A stretch of DNA of 32,000 nt from an archaeon (GTDB lineage: Archaea > Asgardarchaeota > Thorarchaeia > Thorarchaeales > Thorarchaeaceae): contig JAJRZD010000005.1 in assembly GCA_024275415.1 (NCBI GenBank), positions 30,295 through 62,294 of the forward strand, given 5' to 3'. Numbering within the stretch: the stretch's first letter is position 1; each line of letters begins with the position of its first letter. The notes beneath the pieces are model-generated. The model worked only from the letters and a program-made list of their open reading frames with translations. It did no database searches and was not told the origin of the DNA. Shown here one piece after another: positions 24,634 to 32,000 of the stretch. The position numbers and the translations under genes are program-made.

Positions 24634-27009
24634 ATGCAGTTATTCGAGACTTTCCTTGGCATGATGATCATTGAACAGGCAATGATATTGACTGTTATTG
24701 CAGCTGCGTTCGTAAGTCTCGTGTATGCATACTGGCTCAGGAAGAATGTTCTCAAGAAGGACAAGGGAACTGAGCAGATGCAGAAGGTTTGGAATGGCAT
24801 TCGAGAAGGTGCACTGTCTTACTTGAACCGACAACTCAAGACAATCGTACCGATTCTCGCTGTCCTCTCCGTCCTTCTGTTCTTCACAGTATACATAACT
24901 GTGCCAGAAAGAGGAACTGAGGTGCTATTCGAGGATAACCTCGAGGCCGGCAGAATTATTGTCGGAATCGGGCGATCTCTATCATTCGTACTTGGTGCCA
25001 GTTTCTCGCTCATCGTTGGGCAACTCGGGATGCGCATTGCAGTCGAGTCCAATATCCGAGTGGCACAGGCTACACGAGAAGGCGAAGACAGATACAATCG
25101 TGCTTTGTCAATCTCCTATCATGGTGGGACATTCACTGGCATGCTCACTGATGGATTAGGATTACTTGGAGGCACCATCATCTTCATAATCTTTGGTATT
25201 GCAGCACCTGACGCACTACTGGGATTTGGACTGGGTGGCACTCTGCTAGCGCTATTCATGCGAGTCGGAGGTGGAATCTATACAAAGGCAGCAGATGTAG
25301 GTGCTGACCTAGTCGGCAAGGTCGAACACGATCTTCCTGAAGACGATCCACGAAATGCTGCTGTGATTGCAGACCTCGTCGGTGACAATGTGGGTGACTG
25401 TGCAGGAATGGCTGCTGACATCTTCGAGTCCTATGAGGTCACGATTGTTTCAGCGTTGATTCTCGCTATCGTCATCTATTTGGACAATCCAATCACCCTT
25501 CTCCCTGGCGGACTGCTTGCAGTAGTGGTCTTTCCACTCTTCATCAGAGCAATCGGTGTTATCTCATCAATTCTCGGAACCTTCATGGTTCCTGTGTGGC
25601 CGCGGATTCTCAAGAAGGCGCAGGTCTATGCTGAAAAAGCAATGTTCCTCTCCTATGAGGTTTCAAGTGCCTTTACAATCATACTTTCCCTCCTCCTGTC
25701 TTACTTCTATGTTGGGGATTTGAGATTTGGCATACTGATTGCCGTTGGGGTGATGCTGGCTGTTTCATTCAACCCGATTACCAGCTATTTCACATCTCTG
25801 AAAAAACCCCCTGTAAAGGAGATTGTTCAATCTGCAGATACAGGTCATGCAACCTTCATCCTTTCAGGACTTGTTGCGGGCTATGAATCAACCGTGGCAG
25901 CCGTAGTTGTCATCGTTGCAAGCTTTGGGATTGCACACGTTCTTTTCATACCCGCAGTCGCAACAGCAGTGCCATTCTTTGTTGATGCAGTTTCAGACTC
26001 TGGGGACAGCTTCCTTTGGACGCTCTATGGCATAGCTCTGATTGGTATAGGGATGCTATCGCATACAGGTAACAACGTGGCTATGGATTCGTATGGTCCA
26101 ATCAGCGACAATGCAGCAGGTATCGGCGAGCTGTCACCTGGTGATTTCGATGAGGAATCGATGAAGACCATGGCAGAGCTCGATGCGGTTGGCAACACCA
26201 CAAAGGCAATCACCAAAGGAGTTGCAATTGCTTCTGCAGTAATTGCAGCGGTAAGCCTCTTTGATAGCTATGTCGTCATTAGCGGTTTGGATCACCTTCT
26301 ACTTGACAATCCGATGGTGTTCTCAGGACTCCTACTAGGAGCTGCACTCCCGTGGCTGTTCTCTGCTTTGAATATCAAGGCGGTGACACGAGCAGCAGGT
26401 GAGATGGTACGCGAAGTGCGTCGTCAGTTCAGGATTCCAGGAATTCTCGAGGGAACCAAGAAACCTGACTATGACCGTGCTGTGGACATCTCTACAACGG
26501 CAGCCCAGAAAGAACTGATATCACTGGCGGCAATCACCGTTACAGTACCACTCATCGTTGGTATTATGTTTGGAGTTGCTGCACTCGGAGGGTTCCTTGG
26601 AGGCATCATTGTTTCAGGACAGCTGTTAGCCGTATTCATGTCGAATGCTGGAGGCGCATGGGATAATGCAAAGAAGGCAATAGAGGATGAGCCTAGAGAT
26701 ATTGCAAACAATACCGGTAAGGGATCCGAGCGCCACAAATGTGGTGTTGTGGGTGACACAATCGGTGACCCCTTGAAGGATACCGCAGGTCCGGCACTTA
26801 ATCCTATGATCAAGGTCGTAAATCTGCTATCACTCATCCTTGCTCCTCTGTTGTTGACATTCCAGTTCGGGGCAGATCTGACAGTCAATGTCGGACTTCT
26901 TGTTGCTCTCTTCGTGTTGTTCATGATTACAATATGGGCGATAAAGAAAAGCACGAAGCCGGCCGATTTCAAAGCTGCTCCAGACATCCCAGCAGAAGCA
27001 ATCAACTAG
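24634..27009 (+). CDS. hppA: Membrane-integral H+-translocating pyrophosphatase, K+-independent type
   Basis: GGGIYTKAADVGADLVGKVE..LPEDDPRN.AVIADLVGDNVGDCAG, DSYGPISDNA.GI, GNTTKAITKG, AGGAWDNAKK and VVGDTIGDPLKDTAGP. RBS GGTGGTGA. Confidence 0.97.
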   Translation: MQLFETFLGMMIIEQAMILTVIAAAFVSLVYAYWLRKNVLKKDKGTEQMQKVWNGIREGALSYLNRQLKTIVPILAVLSVLLFFTVYITVPERGTEVLFEDNLEAGRIIVGIGRSLSFVLGASFSLIVGQLGMRIAVESNIRVAQATREGEDRYNRALSISYHGGTFTGMLTDGLGLLGGTIIFIIFGIAAPDALLGFGLGGTLLALFMRVGGGIYTKAADVGADLVGKVEHDLPEDDPRNAAVIADLVGDNVGDCAGMAADIFESYEVTIVSALILAIVIYLDNPITLLPGGLLAVVVFPLFIRAIGVISSILGTFMVPVWPRILKKAQVYAEKAMFLSYEVSSAFTIILSLLLSYFYVGDLRFGILIAVGVMLAVSFNPITSYFTSLKKPPVKEIVQSADTGHATFILSGLVAGYESTVAAVVVIVASFGIAHVLFIPAVATAVPFFVDAVSDSGDSFLWTLYGIALIGIGMLSHTGNNVAMDSYGPISDNAAGIGELSPGDFDEESMKTMAELDAVGNTTKAITKGVAIASAVIAAVSLFDSYVVISGLDHLLLDNPMVFSGLLLGAALPWLFSALNIKAVTRAAGEMVREVRRQFRIPGILEGTKKPDYDRAVDISTTAAQKELISLAAITVTVPLIVGIMFGVAALGGFLGGIIVSGQLLAVFMSNAGGAWDNAKKAIEDEPRDIANNTGKGSERHKCGVVGDTIGDPLKDTAGPALNPMIKVVNLLSLILAPLLLTFQFGADLTVNVGLLVALFVLFMITIWAIKKSTKPADFKAAPDIPAEAIN

Positions 27010-27488: not shown

Positions 27489-28268
27489 TTACTCTGGCAA
27501 ATCTCTGTTTGTGGGGATGGCGAGAATAATACTGAATCCTGCTCCGGCGATTGCAATTGTTTCAATGATTAGCACACTTACTGAATCCGTGAACCGTTGG
27601 TCAGCATGTCTGAACCGGAGGGTGACTTCGAAGAAGTTATTGAATAGGATAGTATGATTCTGTTCAGTAGAAACCGAGCCGCGGTCTGAAAGGTACTCCA
27701 AAGAAACCGCCCACATAGCTATCTCACATTTTATGAAGACGGATGTTCCATTGAACCCGGTGACATTTTCCATCGTCAGGAGATCCTCCTCTGCTGAACT
27801 CATTATGACATGTTCGCCAATCAATGCTTCTGCAAGGGGAGTGGAAAATCTCCATGTGAAGAATTGGTTTCCCATGGTAACCTCATATCCCGTGCGTAGA
27901 TACAGGTTCTGCGATAGCTTCTCTGGGATTTCGAAGTGGCGAGCAATCTTCAGCTCAATAGAGTCAAGGCTCTCATTCAACTCCACCCAAGCACCCTGTG
28001 AGAAAGTGGGCATTGTGATATTATACAACCCAGGAGACACCTCTTCAAGAGCACTCTGATGGAATGTATAAGGAGTCCCATTGACGATGCTGAAACTGGC
28101 AGTACTCCATATCACTCTTTTTTCTCGTATCTCGTATGATGTGTCGGACACCGAAAGTGAAAATGCGACCTGCACCCCCGCAATCAATAACAAGGCTACT
28201 ATCACTATTGTCATCTGTACCATTTTAGGACTCAGAAATTGACGGCGCACTTCATATCCTCCATGCAA
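27489..28268 (-). CDS. Hypothetical exported/membrane-anchored protein
   Basis: N-terminal hydrophobic segment (MTIVIVALLLIAGVQVAFSLS), beta-rich middle, and a C-terminal TM (VSVLIIETIAIAGAGFSIILAIP). The start may be Met16 or Met19. Confidence 0.75.
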   Translation of the reverse strand: MHGGYEVRRQFLSPKMVQMTIVIVALLLIAGVQVAFSLSVSDTSYEIREKRVIWSTASFSIVNGTPYTFHQSALEEVSPGLYNITMPTFSQGAWVELNESLDSIELKIARHFEIPEKLSQNLYLRTGYEVTMGNQFFTWRFSTPLAEALIGEHVIMSSAEEDLLTMENVTGFNGTSVFIKCEIAMWAVSLEYLSDRGSVSTEQNHTILFNNFFEVTLRFRHADQRFTDSVSVLIIETIAIAGAGFSIILAIPTNRDLPE

Positions 28269-29125: not shown

Positions 29126-29485
29126 CTAATATCCCCATTCTTGTCCTAACCGCTGGCGATACCAGCGTTGTCCCTTCTTAGTCAAAGAGTATTTGCCCAT
29201 GATTTCTTGAAGAAGACCCATATTCATCATATTTTGAACCACCGTGAACAGTGATGCGTCAGAGGCGCCAGTTGATTTCTTTAGGCTCTGGAAATCCATC
29301 TTACCTTCACGCTTCAGAACCTGGGCCACATCAAATTTCCCTGTAGATCTTGTTTCTTCCCTGATGATGATATGACCGCAATTTGTGCAGATCATATCGC
29401 CTTTGTGGTCGTCACGGGCAACTTCCTTCGCTCCGCAGATTGGACAGGTTGTCTTTGAGAATCTAAGTGAACGTCGGTGTGACAT
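29126..29485 (-). CDS. TFIIB-type zinc ribbon fused to a winged-helix domain (no cyclin repeats)
   Basis: CPICGAKEVARDDHKGDMICTNCGHII fits the TFIIB ribbon pattern CPxCG-x4-D-x2-GDxICxxCG. It is followed by the wHTH VAQVLKREGKMDFQSLKKSTGAS...MGLLQE..GKYSLTKKG. Confidence 0.8.
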   Translation of the reverse strand: MSHRRSLRFSKTTCPICGAKEVARDDHKGDMICTNCGHIIIREETRSTGKFDVAQVLKREGKMDFQSLKKSTGASDASLFTVVQNMMNMGLLQEIMGKYSLTKKGQRWYRQRLGQEWGY

Positions 29486-29550: not shown

Positions 29551-30066
29551 TCAGCTGTCCGGTTCTGTTTCTGCTAGCCTCCTGAAGAAAGTTTCGTAGT
29601 CTATCTCGAACGCAACACGATTCCCGGGTCGTGCTTTTCCTCCTCTGCTGTCAAGTTCGATGTAACCCATGTCGCTCAATTCTCTGAGGTCTGTGAGGAC
29701 ACTCCTTCTGGCTTTTCTCCTGAACTGCCGGATACGGTCGATGCTCACCCAATCGCCTTCTTGGTATGCAAGTGTGATAACGACAAGCAATGTTGCTGCC
29801 AACCTGTCTGGCAACGGTGAGTCTTTCAAGATGAGATCACTGCTTGTGTCAGTGTCCAAGTAAAACACATGGCTTACCGGATTGTGCCGGATCACGAGTC
29901 CTACAGGAGCGATTCTGCGATGCAGCTCTGACAACCTCTGAAAGAGGACATGCCTGCCTGCATCTTCTGGTAACCCTAACGCATCAAGCATATCATCTAC
30001 TCCAGCACCTATCGGATTGCCGGTTCGTGTAAGCAACCTCATGAGGACAGAATACTCGTTCATCAC
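29551..30066 (-). CDS. Kite-family (ScpB/Nse1/Nse3-type) tandem winged-helix subunit of the SMC complex
   Basis: Two wHTH-like halves, located directly downstream of smc and scpA. LPDRLAATLLVVITLAY and VLTDLRELSDMGYIE...GNRVAFE resemble kite proteins. Confidence 0.7.
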   Translation of the reverse strand: MMNEYSVLMRLLTRTGNPIGAGVDDMLDALGLPEDAGRHVLFQRLSELHRRIAPVGLVIRHNPVSHVFYLDTDTSSDLILKDSPLPDRLAATLLVVITLAYQEGDWVSIDRIRQFRRKARRSVLTDLRELSDMGYIELDSRGGKARPGNRVAFEIDYETFFRRLAETEPDS

Positions 30067-30081
30067 GTATCTCTCTCTTCT

Positions 30082-30723
30082 TTATCTGCGCAGTATCTCA
30101 TTCTCATCCCTAAAGTATTCCACATCACCTCTGGAGATGAGCACTACGATGTATAGGAAGTGTCTGAGGAAAAGGTCGAAATCCTTTGCGTCTATAATGT
30201 CAGCAATCGGTATACGTTTCTTTCTTGGGATTTTCTTCAGGTAGCGCCGCAGGTCTTCAAGGAACACAGAGTCCTCTGAAACGAACTTGAAGTCATCAGG
30301 AAGTCCGCTCAACTCTGGTATCTTTTCTTCCGTGGCCACCCTTGAGAGTGCATCTAAATGCTGCATCACTCGACTGAGTGACTCTGTAAGTGAGCTGTGA
30401 CTCAGACGGGTCATCTTCAGAGGTTGCTTGTATGCTATCAACTTGCTGACCTGACGAGGTTTGAGTTCCTTCAACCGGCTCACGTAAATCTCTGGTGCTG
30501 ATAGGATCCTTGCCAATTCCTGCACGCGGCTAATTTTAACACCGAGAAGGTCGTTCAGCATCTCGTCAATATCGAGTTTCGGTTTGACATCAGCAGCCAA
30601 CGCTCGTAGGTCATGATATGCCTCTGAGAGTCCGATGTCAAGAGGATCCATCTCTCCCTTTTCAACTGCACGAACGACCTTTTGTATCTTTGAGAGGAGT
30701 TCTTTGGAACCTGCCATCATCAT
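30082..30723 (-). CDS. scpA: Kleisin (ScpA-like) subunit
   Basis: N-terminal VEKGEMDPLDIGL resembles the ScpA xxxGEIDPWDI motif, and C-terminal FLRHFLYIVVLISRGDVE is the kleisin wHTH cap-binding helix. It starts 5 bp after the smc stop. Confidence 0.8.
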   Translation of the reverse strand: MMMAGSKELLSKIQKVVRAVEKGEMDPLDIGLSEAYHDLRALAADVKPKLDIDEMLNDLLGVKISRVQELARILSAPEIYVSRLKELKPRQVSKLIAYKQPLKMTRLSHSSLTESLSRVMQHLDALSRVATEEKIPELSGLPDDFKFVSEDSVFLEDLRRYLKKIPRKKRIPIADIIDAKDFDLFLRHFLYIVVLISRGDVEYFRDENEILRR

Positions 30724-30728
30724 ACCTT

Positions 30729-32000
30729 CTATTGTCCTTCAAACACAGGGCTCTCGACCACCACTGACGGTTCTGTTCCGCCAGGTGATACCACACCCAA
30801 CCGCTTGTCAGCATGTCTGAGCAGATGCGTACTTTTCGCTGGAGTAAATAGGATGAACTGGCTCCGTCGAGACGCATCATGAAGTAAGCGGCTCACCATC
30901 TCTGTATTCGTAGCGTCCAAGAATGTATCAATCTCGTCCATTGCATATACCGGCGCGGGATTGAATCTCTGTAGCGCCAAGATGAGCCCGATGGCGATGA
31001 GTGAGCGTTCGCCACCAGAGCCAGAGCTGAGATTCCTGAACTCTTCCCCTCTTATCTTAGTCTTGAAGTCAACTCCATAGTCTTTGCTGGCCATATCTAA
31101 TTGAAACTTCACCTTGCCTGAGAACTTGACCGAACTCAGGATTCTGTTTTCCTCCTCCTCTACCTTGAGCAGCACCTCATTCATACCGTTACGGTACTGT
31201 ATTTTTATTTCTTTGACAGTCGTTTCTGCTTATTTCAGCTCCTGCCTGATATCTTCGAGTTTTTCATCAAGCTCTGAGAGCCGGTCGCGGAGTTGGCTTT
31301 CAGTATGAGCAATAGTTTCAGTGACATCCCTGTATTCGTCCAATTGGTGTCGTACTCGTAGCAGCTCTTCTCTGACGACTTCTATAGGTCTTACCCTCTT
31401 TGGTCGCTTGGTCTTCTTCAGCTGCTCCTCGATTACTGCCTTCTGGTGAACGAACGCATCGTGCTGCCGTTTTGCCTGCACCACTTGGATCCTGCTGTTC
31501 TTGACCTGAAGATTAAGTTCTAGCAGACGACCACTAAGTTCTCGTATCATCTCACGGATATCAGCTTGCTGTCCTACAAGTTCAGTATATTTGCTGTTGG
31601 TTTTTTCAAGTCCTTCTTTCAAGGTTTCTAACGTTTCTACGATTGTCGTGCCTTCAGTCCTCACAGAGGATATCTCTTCCCGAAGGTCTGTGACTCTTTC
31701 TGAAAGTATTGTAATGCTCTCTCCAAGACTGCTCACCTCAGCCCGTTTTGCAGCTTGATCCCTCTCGGCAGTTTGCAGGTTGCTCTCGACCTCAGCAAGC
31801 TGTTCCCTCAGTTTCCTGTACCTCATACGTATTGCTGATTGCTCTGCGACGAGCCTGCTTCGTTCAGGAGGTTGTGAGGCATCTAGTTTCTTCAACTCCC
31901 TTTCAGCCCTGGCTATTTTAGACTGGAATTCCTTTATCTCATCATCGAGCGCAACGATGCGCTCCTGTTGCTCAGGTATCATATCTCGAAGTTTCTTTCG
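30729..32000 (-). CDS. smc: SMC-family ATPase (Smc5/6-like head), 5'-partial, interrupted by one in-frame TAA at 31230-31232
   Basis: ORFs 31230..31982 and 30729..31184 are in the same frame, joined as ...DIRQELK*AETTVKEIKIQYRNG-MNEV.... Long coiled coil, signature SGGERS, Walker B AMDEID, and SQFILFTP. The frame is open to the window edge. Confidence 0.88.

What the first reader, a model, noticed from the sequence alone, without database searches (positions are those of the whole stretch)
29551..32000. Smc5/6-like SMC-kleisin-kite operon in a probable Asgard archaeon
Seen: three tightly spaced minus-strand genes (gaps of 5 and 15 bp) encoding an SMC head, a kleisin and a kite. The head reads DYGVDFKTKIR...[33 protein letters not shown]..N...V......SQFILFTP. 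Established (recalled from memory): eukaryotic Smc5 carries YGIxIxVKFR...SGGERS...LMALQxLNxCP...DEI...SQYFFITP, and Smc5/Smc6 have TP where canonical Smc/Rad50 have an H-loop (TH/SLR). Smc5/6 is also the only eukaryotic SMC that uses kite subunits. Inference: this is a compact prokaryotic Smc5/6-type complex, a candidate ancestor of the eukaryotic DNA-repair and extrachromosomal-DNA restriction machine. Archaeal Smc5/6-related genes may already appear in phylogenomic surveys, so novelty needs checking.
Basis: partly seen in the sequence, partly recalled or inferred. Interest (0 to 1): 0.85.

Follow-up and report, generated by a model that had tools for sequence, protein, structure and literature searches.

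The report
Second SMC-kleisin-kite operon of Thorarchaeota
This is a real second chromosome-handling SMC complex operon (SMC, kleisin, kite) of a Thorarchaeota (Asgard) genome, of the kind already published as the archaeal relative of eukaryotic Smc5/6, so it is one more example and not a discovery.

Summary
The three tightly spaced minus-strand genes are there as described. The SMC gene runs off the contig and continues on contig C71, about 1116 aa in all, with a hinge. It also carries one in-frame TAA at 31230-31232.

The 213-aa protein has a kleisin fold and the 171-aa protein a kite fold; neither matches any Pfam or NCBIfam model. The same genome also has a canonical smc-scpA-scpB operon, so this is a second complex.

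A profile of this SMC family scores about twice as high against solved Smc5/Smc6 as the canonical Asgard Smc profile does, and 2-3 times lower against Smc1-4. That fits the published "SMC5/6-related archaeal SMC" (Yoshinaga & Inagaki 2021; van Hooff et al. preprint). I could not build a tree with eukaryotic sequences, and kleisin and kite show no Nse4- or Nse1/3-specific signal.

The TAA replaces a conserved Glu codon. Similar stops sit in this assembly's canonical smc and in rpoB, so it is probably sequence error, not decay of the operon.

A degenerate AAA+ gene upstream and a Zn-ribbon/winged-helix gene downstream are conserved with the operon. This scan has already reported the same locus type in another Thorarchaeota genome.

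The parts
30729..31229 (-). SMC C-terminal head: signature motif SGGERS, Walker B [8 protein letters not shown], D-loop, and FTPAKST in place of the H-loop
   Evidence: Pfam SMC_N 71 bits. PDB hits are SMC heads only. 66-80% identical in Thorarchaeota relatives. The P of the TP motif is invariant in the family.
31230..31232 (-). In-frame TAA inside the SMC gene
   Evidence: Same frame on both sides. All 28 relatives have GAA or GAG (Glu) here and an uninterrupted ORF.
31233..32000 (-). SMC C-terminal coiled-coil arm, cut by the contig end. The rest (N-head, arm, hinge) lies on contig C71:319-2397, minus strand.
   Evidence: Coiled-coil Pfam noise only. Overlap with C71. Stitched protein. SMC_hinge 43.7 bits and AAA_23/SMC_N on the C71 part.
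30082..30723 (-). Kleisin-like subunit, 213 aa: N-terminal helical domain, linker, C-terminal winged helix (residues 150-213)
   Evidence: AF2 model pLDDT 74.7, C-terminal WHD above 90. Best VIA match is the ScpA C-WHD 4i99_C, Z 8.5, rmsd 1.9 over 61 aa. The top 30 Swiss-Prot fold hits are all ScpA, Nse4 or EID3. No Pfam or NCBIfam hit.
29551..30066 (-). Kite subunit, 171 aa, two winged-helix domains
   Evidence: AF2 model pLDDT 76.6. Foldseek against PDB: ScpB, JetB, MAGE-A3, MukE, Nse1/Nse3, probabilities about 0.97-1. Swiss-Prot: MAGE-B1, ScpB, MukE. No Pfam hit for this protein.
29126..29485 (-). Zn-ribbon (TFIIB type) plus winged-helix protein, 119 aa; conserved partner gene of the kite
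   Evidence: Pfam Zn_Ribbon_TF 31.5 bits. Directly downstream of the kite in every Thorarchaeota locus examined and in G112, also where the kite is separated from the kleisin.

Best explanation
The locus encodes a second, non-canonical SMC complex of a Thorarchaeota genome. It belongs to the archaeal lineage that published phylogenies place next to eukaryotic Smc5/Smc6.

Inferred mechanism, by analogy with Smc-ScpAB and Smc5/6:
- One SMC of about 1116 aa dimerises through its hinge.
- The 213-aa kleisin bridges the two ATPase heads, N-terminal helices on one neck and C-terminal winged helix on the other head's cap.
- A dimer of the 171-aa kite sits on the middle of the kleisin.
- ATP binding and hydrolysis drive DNA entrapment or loop extrusion.

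Shown here: gene order and its conservation, SMC motifs and hinge, the kleisin and kite folds, paralogy to a canonical smc-scpA-scpB in the same genome, and a higher profile similarity to Smc5/6 than the canonical paralogue has.

Inferred only: subunit contacts, stoichiometry, DNA activity, and any role in repair or in restricting extrachromosomal DNA.

The TAA in the SMC gene is most likely a sequence or assembly error. A degenerate AAA+ gene upstream (on C71) and the Zn-ribbon/winged-helix gene downstream are probably extra parts or regulators.
For: - Operon and motifs.
- Hinge.
- Conservation: kleisin-like gene in 60/76 genomes of the family by single query. By profile, 134/301 sampled Asgard genomes in families f1, f2, f9 and f24, plus two weak matches in f19.
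- Synteny.
- Canonical smc-scpA-scpB elsewhere in the genome, on C120.
- Head tree of archaeal sequences: this family, with the window's protein, is one clade at 100/100, apart from canonical Asgard Smc.
- An ortholog of the same genus scores 290 bits on NCBIfam SMC_prok_A, cut-off 729.
- Family profile against PDB: Smc5 130-146 bits, Smc6 114-130, Smc1-4 90-204. Canonical Asgard profile: Smc1-4 319-428, and no Smc5/6 among the best 60, so under 75.9 bits.
- N-terminal part alone: Smc6 44.9 bits, against 37.1 for Pyrococcus Smc.
- Nearest language-model clusters include eukaryotic SMC6 clusters (a lead only).
- Kleisin fold. Kite fold.
- Literature: PMC8665677; bioRxiv 10.1101/2024.01.07.573240.
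- The TAA is probably not gene-specific decay: in-frame TAA also in canonical smc (Glu in relatives) and in rpoB (Ser in relatives).
Against: - No tree with eukaryotic SMC1-6 could be built here, so sisterhood to Smc5/6 rests on profile scores and on the literature.
- By pairwise score the C-terminal head is closest to canonical Pyrococcus/Thermotoga Smc (69 bits, against 41 for Smc5 and 31 for Smc6).
- No member of the kleisin or kite families matches Pfam Nse4_C, MAGE or SMC_Nse1.
- 15 of 56 kite-family members match Pfam ScpB.
- The TP motif also occurs in a canonical-like SMC.
- The in-frame TAA could be real; no reads could be examined.
Confidence: 0.7

Rival explanations
1. It is an Asgard-specific, fast-evolving duplicate of the canonical Smc-ScpA-ScpB complex, with no special kinship to eukaryotic Smc5/6. 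The resemblance to Smc5/6 would then come from divergence or convergence.
For: - The C-terminal head is most similar to Pyrococcus/Thermotoga Smc.
- 15 of 56 kite-family members match Pfam ScpB, best E 2.8e-14.
- The kleisin C-WHD fits ScpA best.
- No Nse4, MAGE or Nse1 Pfam signal.
- Locus L093 has a comparable AAA-SMC-kleisin-kite layout around a canonical-like SMC that also carries TP.
Against: - A merely divergent copy of canonical Smc should score lower on Smc5/6 than the canonical profile does. It scores about twice as high: 114-146 bits against under 76.
- Profile-profile matches to the genome's own family of ScpA and ScpB are very weak: hhalign probability 5.6% and 22.9%.
- Published ML trees place second archaeal SMCs, kleisins and kites with SMC5/6, Nse4 and Nse1/3.
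Confidence: 0.2
2. It is a decaying or inactive operon in this organism: the TAA truncates the SMC before its C-terminal head, so no working complex is made.
For: In-frame TAA at 31230-31232 where all 28 relatives have Glu.
Against: - The kleisin, kite, Zn-ribbon and both SMC parts are otherwise intact and conserved.
- The same kind of G:C>T:A nonsense change sits in the canonical smc and in the essential rpoB of this assembly. That points to errors in the assembly, or variants that did not come from one viable genome.
- The replaced residues differ (Glu, Glu, Ser), so recoding of TAA is also unlikely.
Confidence: 0.07
3. It is a Wadjet/MukBEF-type defence module against plasmids rather than a chromosomal SMC complex.
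For: JetB is the second-best PDB fold match of the kite.
Against: - No MukB or JetC among the PDB sequence hits of the SMC parts.
- A true SMC hinge is present.
- No nuclease gene was seen in the conserved neighbourhood.
- The operon is near-universal in the family and syntenic, unlike patchy defence islands.
Confidence: 0.03

Closest known systems
Archaeal 'SMC5/6-related' SMC-kleisin-kite operons of TACK and Asgard archaea (Yoshinaga & Inagaki 2021, PMC8665677; van Hooff, Raas, Tromer & Eme, bioRxiv 10.1101/2024.01.07.573240)
   Same: A second operon beside the canonical one, encoding one SMC, one kleisin and one kite, in an Asgard genome. The SMC is relatively closer to Smc5/6 than the canonical paralogue is.
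   Different: I could not confirm that this very family is in their trees. The text searched for 'AAA' and 'zinc' in van Hooff et al. mentions neither the degenerate AAA+ gene nor the Zn-ribbon/winged-helix gene; PMC8665677 was not searched for them. The kite here leans towards ScpB rather than Nse1/3 in Pfam terms.
Eukaryotic Smc5/6 with Nse1-Nse3-Nse4
   Same: SMC plus kleisin plus kite architecture. Fold matches to Nse4 and to MAGE/Nse3 and Nse1.
   Different: One SMC gene, so presumably a homodimer, and one kite gene. No RING on the kite. No Pfam match to Nse1, MAGE or Nse4_C in the genome; Nse2, Nse5 and Nse6 were not searched for. The proteins are much shorter.
Canonical prokaryotic Smc-ScpA-ScpB
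   Same: Same three-part architecture and gene order, a hinge-containing SMC of normal length, and a kleisin C-terminal winged helix that superposes on ScpA bound to the Pyrococcus Smc head.
   Different: The genome has its own canonical set on contig C120. This SMC is far below the SMC_prok_A cut-off. Its kleisin and kite fail the ScpA and ScpB models and align only weakly to the Thorarchaeota ScpA and ScpB profiles.

Membership tests
SMC proper (hinge-containing SMC ATPase) | Walker A, Q-loop, signature motif, Walker B and D-loop split between N- and C-terminal head halves | tested here: met
   [28 protein letters not shown], DTFLD in the stitched protein. SMC_N and AAA_23 match.
SMC proper (hinge-containing SMC ATPase) | Hinge domain between two long coiled-coil arms | tested here: met
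   Pfam SMC_hinge 43.7 bits (cut-off 22.5) at residues 488-597 of the C71 part. Total length about 1116 aa.
Canonical Smc-ScpAB | SMC reaches the NCBIfam SMC_prok_A/B equivalog cut-off | tested here: not met
   An intact ortholog of the same genus scores 290 bits against a cut-off of 729, and 248 against 567. It forms a separate clade from canonical Asgard Smc, 100/100.
Canonical Smc-ScpAB | Partners match Pfam SMC_ScpA and SMC_ScpB | tested here: not met
   No ScpA hit in any of 24 kleisin-family members. No ScpB hit for the window's kite, though 15 of 56 mostly distant family members match ScpB.
Kleisin superfamily | N-terminal helical domain and C-terminal winged helix of the kleisin fold | tested here: met
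   VIA Z 8.5, rmsd 1.9 over 61 aa to the ScpA C-WHD 4i99_C. The top 30 Swiss-Prot fold hits are all ScpA, Nse4 or EID3, best E 7.7e-5.
Kleisin superfamily | Bridges the SMC neck and the SMC head cap | not testable with these tools
   Needs binding or structural data. Inferred from fold and gene position only.
Kite superfamily | Tandem winged-helix fold shared by ScpB, MukE, JetB, Nse1 and Nse3/MAGE | tested here: met
   Foldseek probability 1.00 to ScpB, JetB and MAGE-A3, and 0.97-0.99 to MukE, Nse1 and Nse3. MAGE-B1, ScpB and MukE in Swiss-Prot.
Kite superfamily | Dimer bound to the central part of the kleisin | not tested
Archaeal SMC5/6-related SMC (Yoshinaga & Inagaki; van Hooff et al.) | Groups with eukaryotic SMC5 and SMC6 in ML trees, apart from canonical archaeal SMC | not testable with these tools
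   No eukaryotic SMC sequence could be obtained as a usable record: the 120 rows are nearly all labelled Thorarchaeota, and no supplements are held.
Archaeal SMC5/6-related SMC (Yoshinaga & Inagaki; van Hooff et al.) | Closer to Smc5/6, and farther from Smc1-4, than the canonical paralogue of the same genomes | tested here: met
   Family profile: Smc5 130-146 bits, Smc6 114-130, Smc1-4 90-204. Canonical profile: Smc1-4 319-428, Smc5/6 under 75.9.
Archaeal SMC5/6-related SMC (Yoshinaga & Inagaki; van Hooff et al.) | Nse4-related kleisin and Nse1/3-like kite | tested here: inconclusive
   No Pfam Nse4_C, MAGE or Nse1 match. In fold searches Nse4 and MAGE are tied with ScpA and ScpB.
Eukaryotic Smc5/6 holocomplex | Heterodimer of two SMC paralogues with two different kites (Nse1 with a RING, and Nse3) | tested here: not met
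   One SMC gene and one 171-aa kite without a RING in the operon. No further full-length SMC gene in the genome beyond the canonical one.
MukBEF / Wadjet (JetABCD) | MukB/JetC-type SMC and, for Wadjet, a JetD nuclease | tested here: not met
   No MukB or JetC among the PDB sequence hits of the head parts. No nuclease gene in the conserved neighbourhood.

The most novel reading that the evidence does not exclude
The working unit has five parts, not three. A catalytically degenerate AAA+ protein sits directly upstream of smc in Thorarchaeota, G112 and G147; its Walker A reads GNPGTDFEA and its Walker B LDKVD. A Zn-ribbon/winged-helix protein is always paired with the kite in Thorarchaeota and G112 (it is not present downstream of the kite in G147). 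Both would be true subunits or dedicated loaders or regulators of the archaeal Smc5/6-like complex, playing roles like those that Nse5/6 or Nse2 play in eukaryotes. Neither was mentioned in the papers I searched.
Probability: 0.3. Interest if true: 0.6.

Novelty: new member of a known kind. Interest (0 to 1): 0.3.

Why it matters
The Smc5/6-like second SMC complex of Asgard and TACK archaea is the proposed ancestor of the eukaryotic Smc5/6 DNA-repair and DNA-restriction machine. A compact homodimeric version would be a tractable model for how kite-type SMC complexes work.

That idea is already published, and this locus adds only one more example. What may be new is the constant company of a degenerate AAA+ gene and a Zn-ribbon/winged-helix gene. 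These are cheap to test by co-expression and pull-down.

In public databases the kleisin and kite of this family are still 'hypothetical protein', and the SMC is labelled 'AAA family ATPase' or generic SMC.

Tried and rejected
- Complex prediction of N-head, C-head and kleisin: no verdict, score 0.16 against a mark of 0.32. This counts neither for nor against binding.
- Public sequencing runs to check the TAA: none was listed, so no reads were laid.
- Pfam and NCBIfam on kleisin and kite: no informative hit.
- phmmer of the genome's own ScpB against the 72 kite-family representatives: no hit.
- Getting eukaryotic Smc5/6, Nse4, Nse1 or Nse3 sequences for a tree. The kite profile search of 1.84 billion representatives gave only 72 short proteins of 46-232 aa. 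The SMC homologue list was filled almost entirely with Thorarchaeota-labelled records. No paper supplements are held.
- A short C-terminal query to bring Smc5/6 to the top of the PDB list: canonical Smc stayed on top.
- TAA as a recoded sense codon: rejected, because the replaced conserved residues differ (Glu, Glu, Ser).
- Counting same-frame ORF pairs genome-wide to measure nonsense load: too noisy, since adjacent genes dominate.
- A third, MAGE-type kite or Nse4-type kleisin in this genome: not found with Pfam MAGE, Nse1 or Nse4_C (genome 92.9% complete).
Full report
**Observation.** The minus strand of 29551-32000 carries three ORFs: 30729-31184 (151 aa, SMC C-terminal head), 30082-30723 (213 aa) and 29551-30066 (171 aa).

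Two things were missed. First, the head ORF is preceded in the same frame by a TAA at 31230-31232 and then by a coiled-coil ORF that runs to the window end. Second, the window ends with contig C45. The first 318 bases of contig C71 overlap that end with two mismatches and carry the rest of the gene. The stitched protein is about 1116 aa. It has Walker A GPNGSGKT, a Q-loop, an SMC hinge (Pfam 43.7 bits), the signature motif SGGERS and Walker B VYAMDEID.

**Organism and paralogy.** Database names of close homologues, and earlier notes of this scan, say Thorarchaeota, an Asgard lineage. The same genome has a canonical smc-scpA-scpB operon on contig C120, with clear Pfam ScpA and ScpB matches. The window therefore holds a second SMC complex.

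An intact ortholog from the same genus reaches only 290 bits on NCBIfam SMC_prok_A, whose cut-off is 729. It is neither ASRP nor Rad50. In a head-domain ML tree of archaeal sequences, the window's protein and its relatives from three Asgard families form one clade. Canonical Asgard Smc forms another, and both have 100/100 support.

**The partners.** Neither small protein matches Pfam or NCBIfam. Their database homologues are 'hypothetical protein'.

- *The 171-aa protein.* An AlphaFold model (pLDDT 76.6) is a tandem winged helix. Its best PDB and Swiss-Prot fold matches are the kites: ScpB, JetB, MAGE/Nse3, MukE and Nse1, at probabilities of about 0.97-1.
- *The 213-aa protein.* The model (pLDDT 74.7) has an N-terminal helical domain and a confident C-terminal winged helix. 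That winged helix superposes on the ScpA C-terminal domain bound to the Pyrococcus Smc head, with Z 8.5 and rmsd 1.9 Å over 61 residues. All thirty best Swiss-Prot fold matches are kleisins: ScpA, Nse4 or EID3.

So kleisin and kite are supported at the level of fold. Which branch of each superfamily they belong to is not resolved. Nse4 ties with ScpA and MAGE ties with ScpB in the fold searches. No family member hits Pfam Nse4_C, MAGE or Nse1. Fifteen of 56 kite-family members, mostly the distant ones, hit Pfam ScpB. Profile-profile matches to the Thorarchaeota ScpA and ScpB families are collinear but weak, at 5.6% and 22.9% probability.

**Is the SMC Smc5/6-like?** I could not obtain eukaryotic sequences for a tree. 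As a substitute I compared two profiles with all solved SMC sequences.

| Profile | Smc5 (bits) | Smc6 (bits) | Smc1-4 (bits) |
|---|---|---|---|
| This family, 8 full-length proteins | 130-146 | 114-130 | 90-204 |
| Canonical Asgard Smc from overlapping genomes | under 75.9 | under 75.9 | 319-428 |

No Smc5 or Smc6 is among the best 60 hits of the canonical profile. The two archaeal families score 80-260 bits on each other.

The pairing (this family with Smc5/6; canonical with Smc1-4) gives by far the largest summed score. A merely fast-evolving copy of canonical Smc would not be expected to gain similarity to Smc5/6. This agrees with Yoshinaga & Inagaki 2021 (80 'SMC5/6-related' archaeal SMCs, some in Asgard). 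It also agrees with van Hooff et al., who describe second operons with SMC, an Nse4-related kleisin and an Nse1/3-like kite in TACK and Asgard archaea.

Some points count against. The C-terminal head alone is most similar to Pyrococcus Smc. I put the Smc5/6 kinship at about two in three, and the 'second SMC-kleisin-kite complex' reading at about nine in ten.

**The stop codon.** All 28 relatives have GAA or GAG (Glu) where the window has TAA, and their SMC ORFs are whole. The canonical smc of this genome also has an in-frame TAA at a conserved Glu codon. So does rpoB, at a conserved Ser codon, TCA to TAA. Two further genes look the same. The three that were checked against relatives are all G:C>T:A changes.

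An essential gene cannot carry a true nonsense codon, and the replaced residues differ. Assembly or sequence error is therefore the likeliest reading, and recoding is unlikely.

**Wider locus.** A 300-360-aa AAA+ protein lies directly upstream of the SMC in every locus examined, including G112 and G147 from other Asgard families. Its Walker A (GNPGTDFEA) and Walker B (LDKVD) are degenerate. The 119-aa Zn-ribbon/winged-helix gene always follows the kite in Thorarchaeota and G112. This holds even where an MFS-like gene, or up to 11 kb, has been inserted between kleisin and kite.

With a kleisin profile the operon was found in 134 of 301 sampled Asgard genomes. The matches fall in families f1, f2, f9 and f24, with two weak ones in f19, and none in the other families sampled. 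The text I searched in van Hooff et al. mentions neither extra gene.

**Earlier reports of this scan.** One report describes the same locus type, with the dead AAA+ and the Zn-ribbon gene, in another Thorarchaeota genome. Others describe hinge-less relatives in TACK archaea.

**Verdict.** The system is a further member of a published kind, and its interest is modest.

Noticed in passing
G000 contigs C120:15176-15178, C117:12139-12141, C119:57484, C71:24502 (outside the window): In-frame TAA codons interrupt the canonical smc (Glu in relatives), rpoB (Ser TCA in relatives), a PAS sensor gene and a thioredoxin-reductase-like gene. The first two, like the window's own TAA, are G:C>T:A changes; the last two were not compared with relatives. 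This suggests a substitution-error signature in this assembly.
   Followed up: partly
window 31683-32000 and contig C71:1-318: The ends of contigs C45 and C71 overlap by 318 bases with two T/C mismatches. The assembly broke inside the SMC coiled-coil region, probably because of strain variation.
   Followed up: yes
contig C71:2426-3511, minus strand (L007:1886-2971): An AAA+ (PF00004) gene with degenerate Walker A and B lies directly upstream of the SMC. It is conserved in that position in Thorarchaeota, G112 and G147.
   Followed up: partly
L093:131-6841 (JGI metagenome contig): An AT-rich archaeal contig carries AAA+ (intact Walker A), SMC (441 bits on the canonical profile, yet with TTPRK at the H-loop position), a 228-aa kleisin-like gene without a Pfam hit, and a kite matching Pfam ScpB at 53 bits. 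The layout is comparable, but built around a canonical-like SMC.
   Followed up: partly
L019-L023, L026-L047; G257:C1:218250-230188: In many Thorarchaeota an opposite-strand MFS-like transporter gene, or up to 11 kb, separates the SMC-kleisin pair from the kite and Zn-ribbon pair. In the window's genome the genes are contiguous.
   Followed up: partly
window 24634-27009 (+) and 27489-28268 (-): A membrane H+-pyrophosphatase-like gene (791 aa) and a 259-aa gene of no known family, apparently a membrane protein, lie downstream of the operon. Fragments of the pyrophosphatase-like gene are seen near the operon in several relatives (L053, L055, L060).
   Followed up: no
G138:C103:25477-26103, G183:C18:111606-112241, G243:C166:18664-19293, G150:C69:3102-3725: In four genomes of Asgard family f9 the match to the kleisin profile contains one in-frame TAA or TAG.
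   Followed up: no
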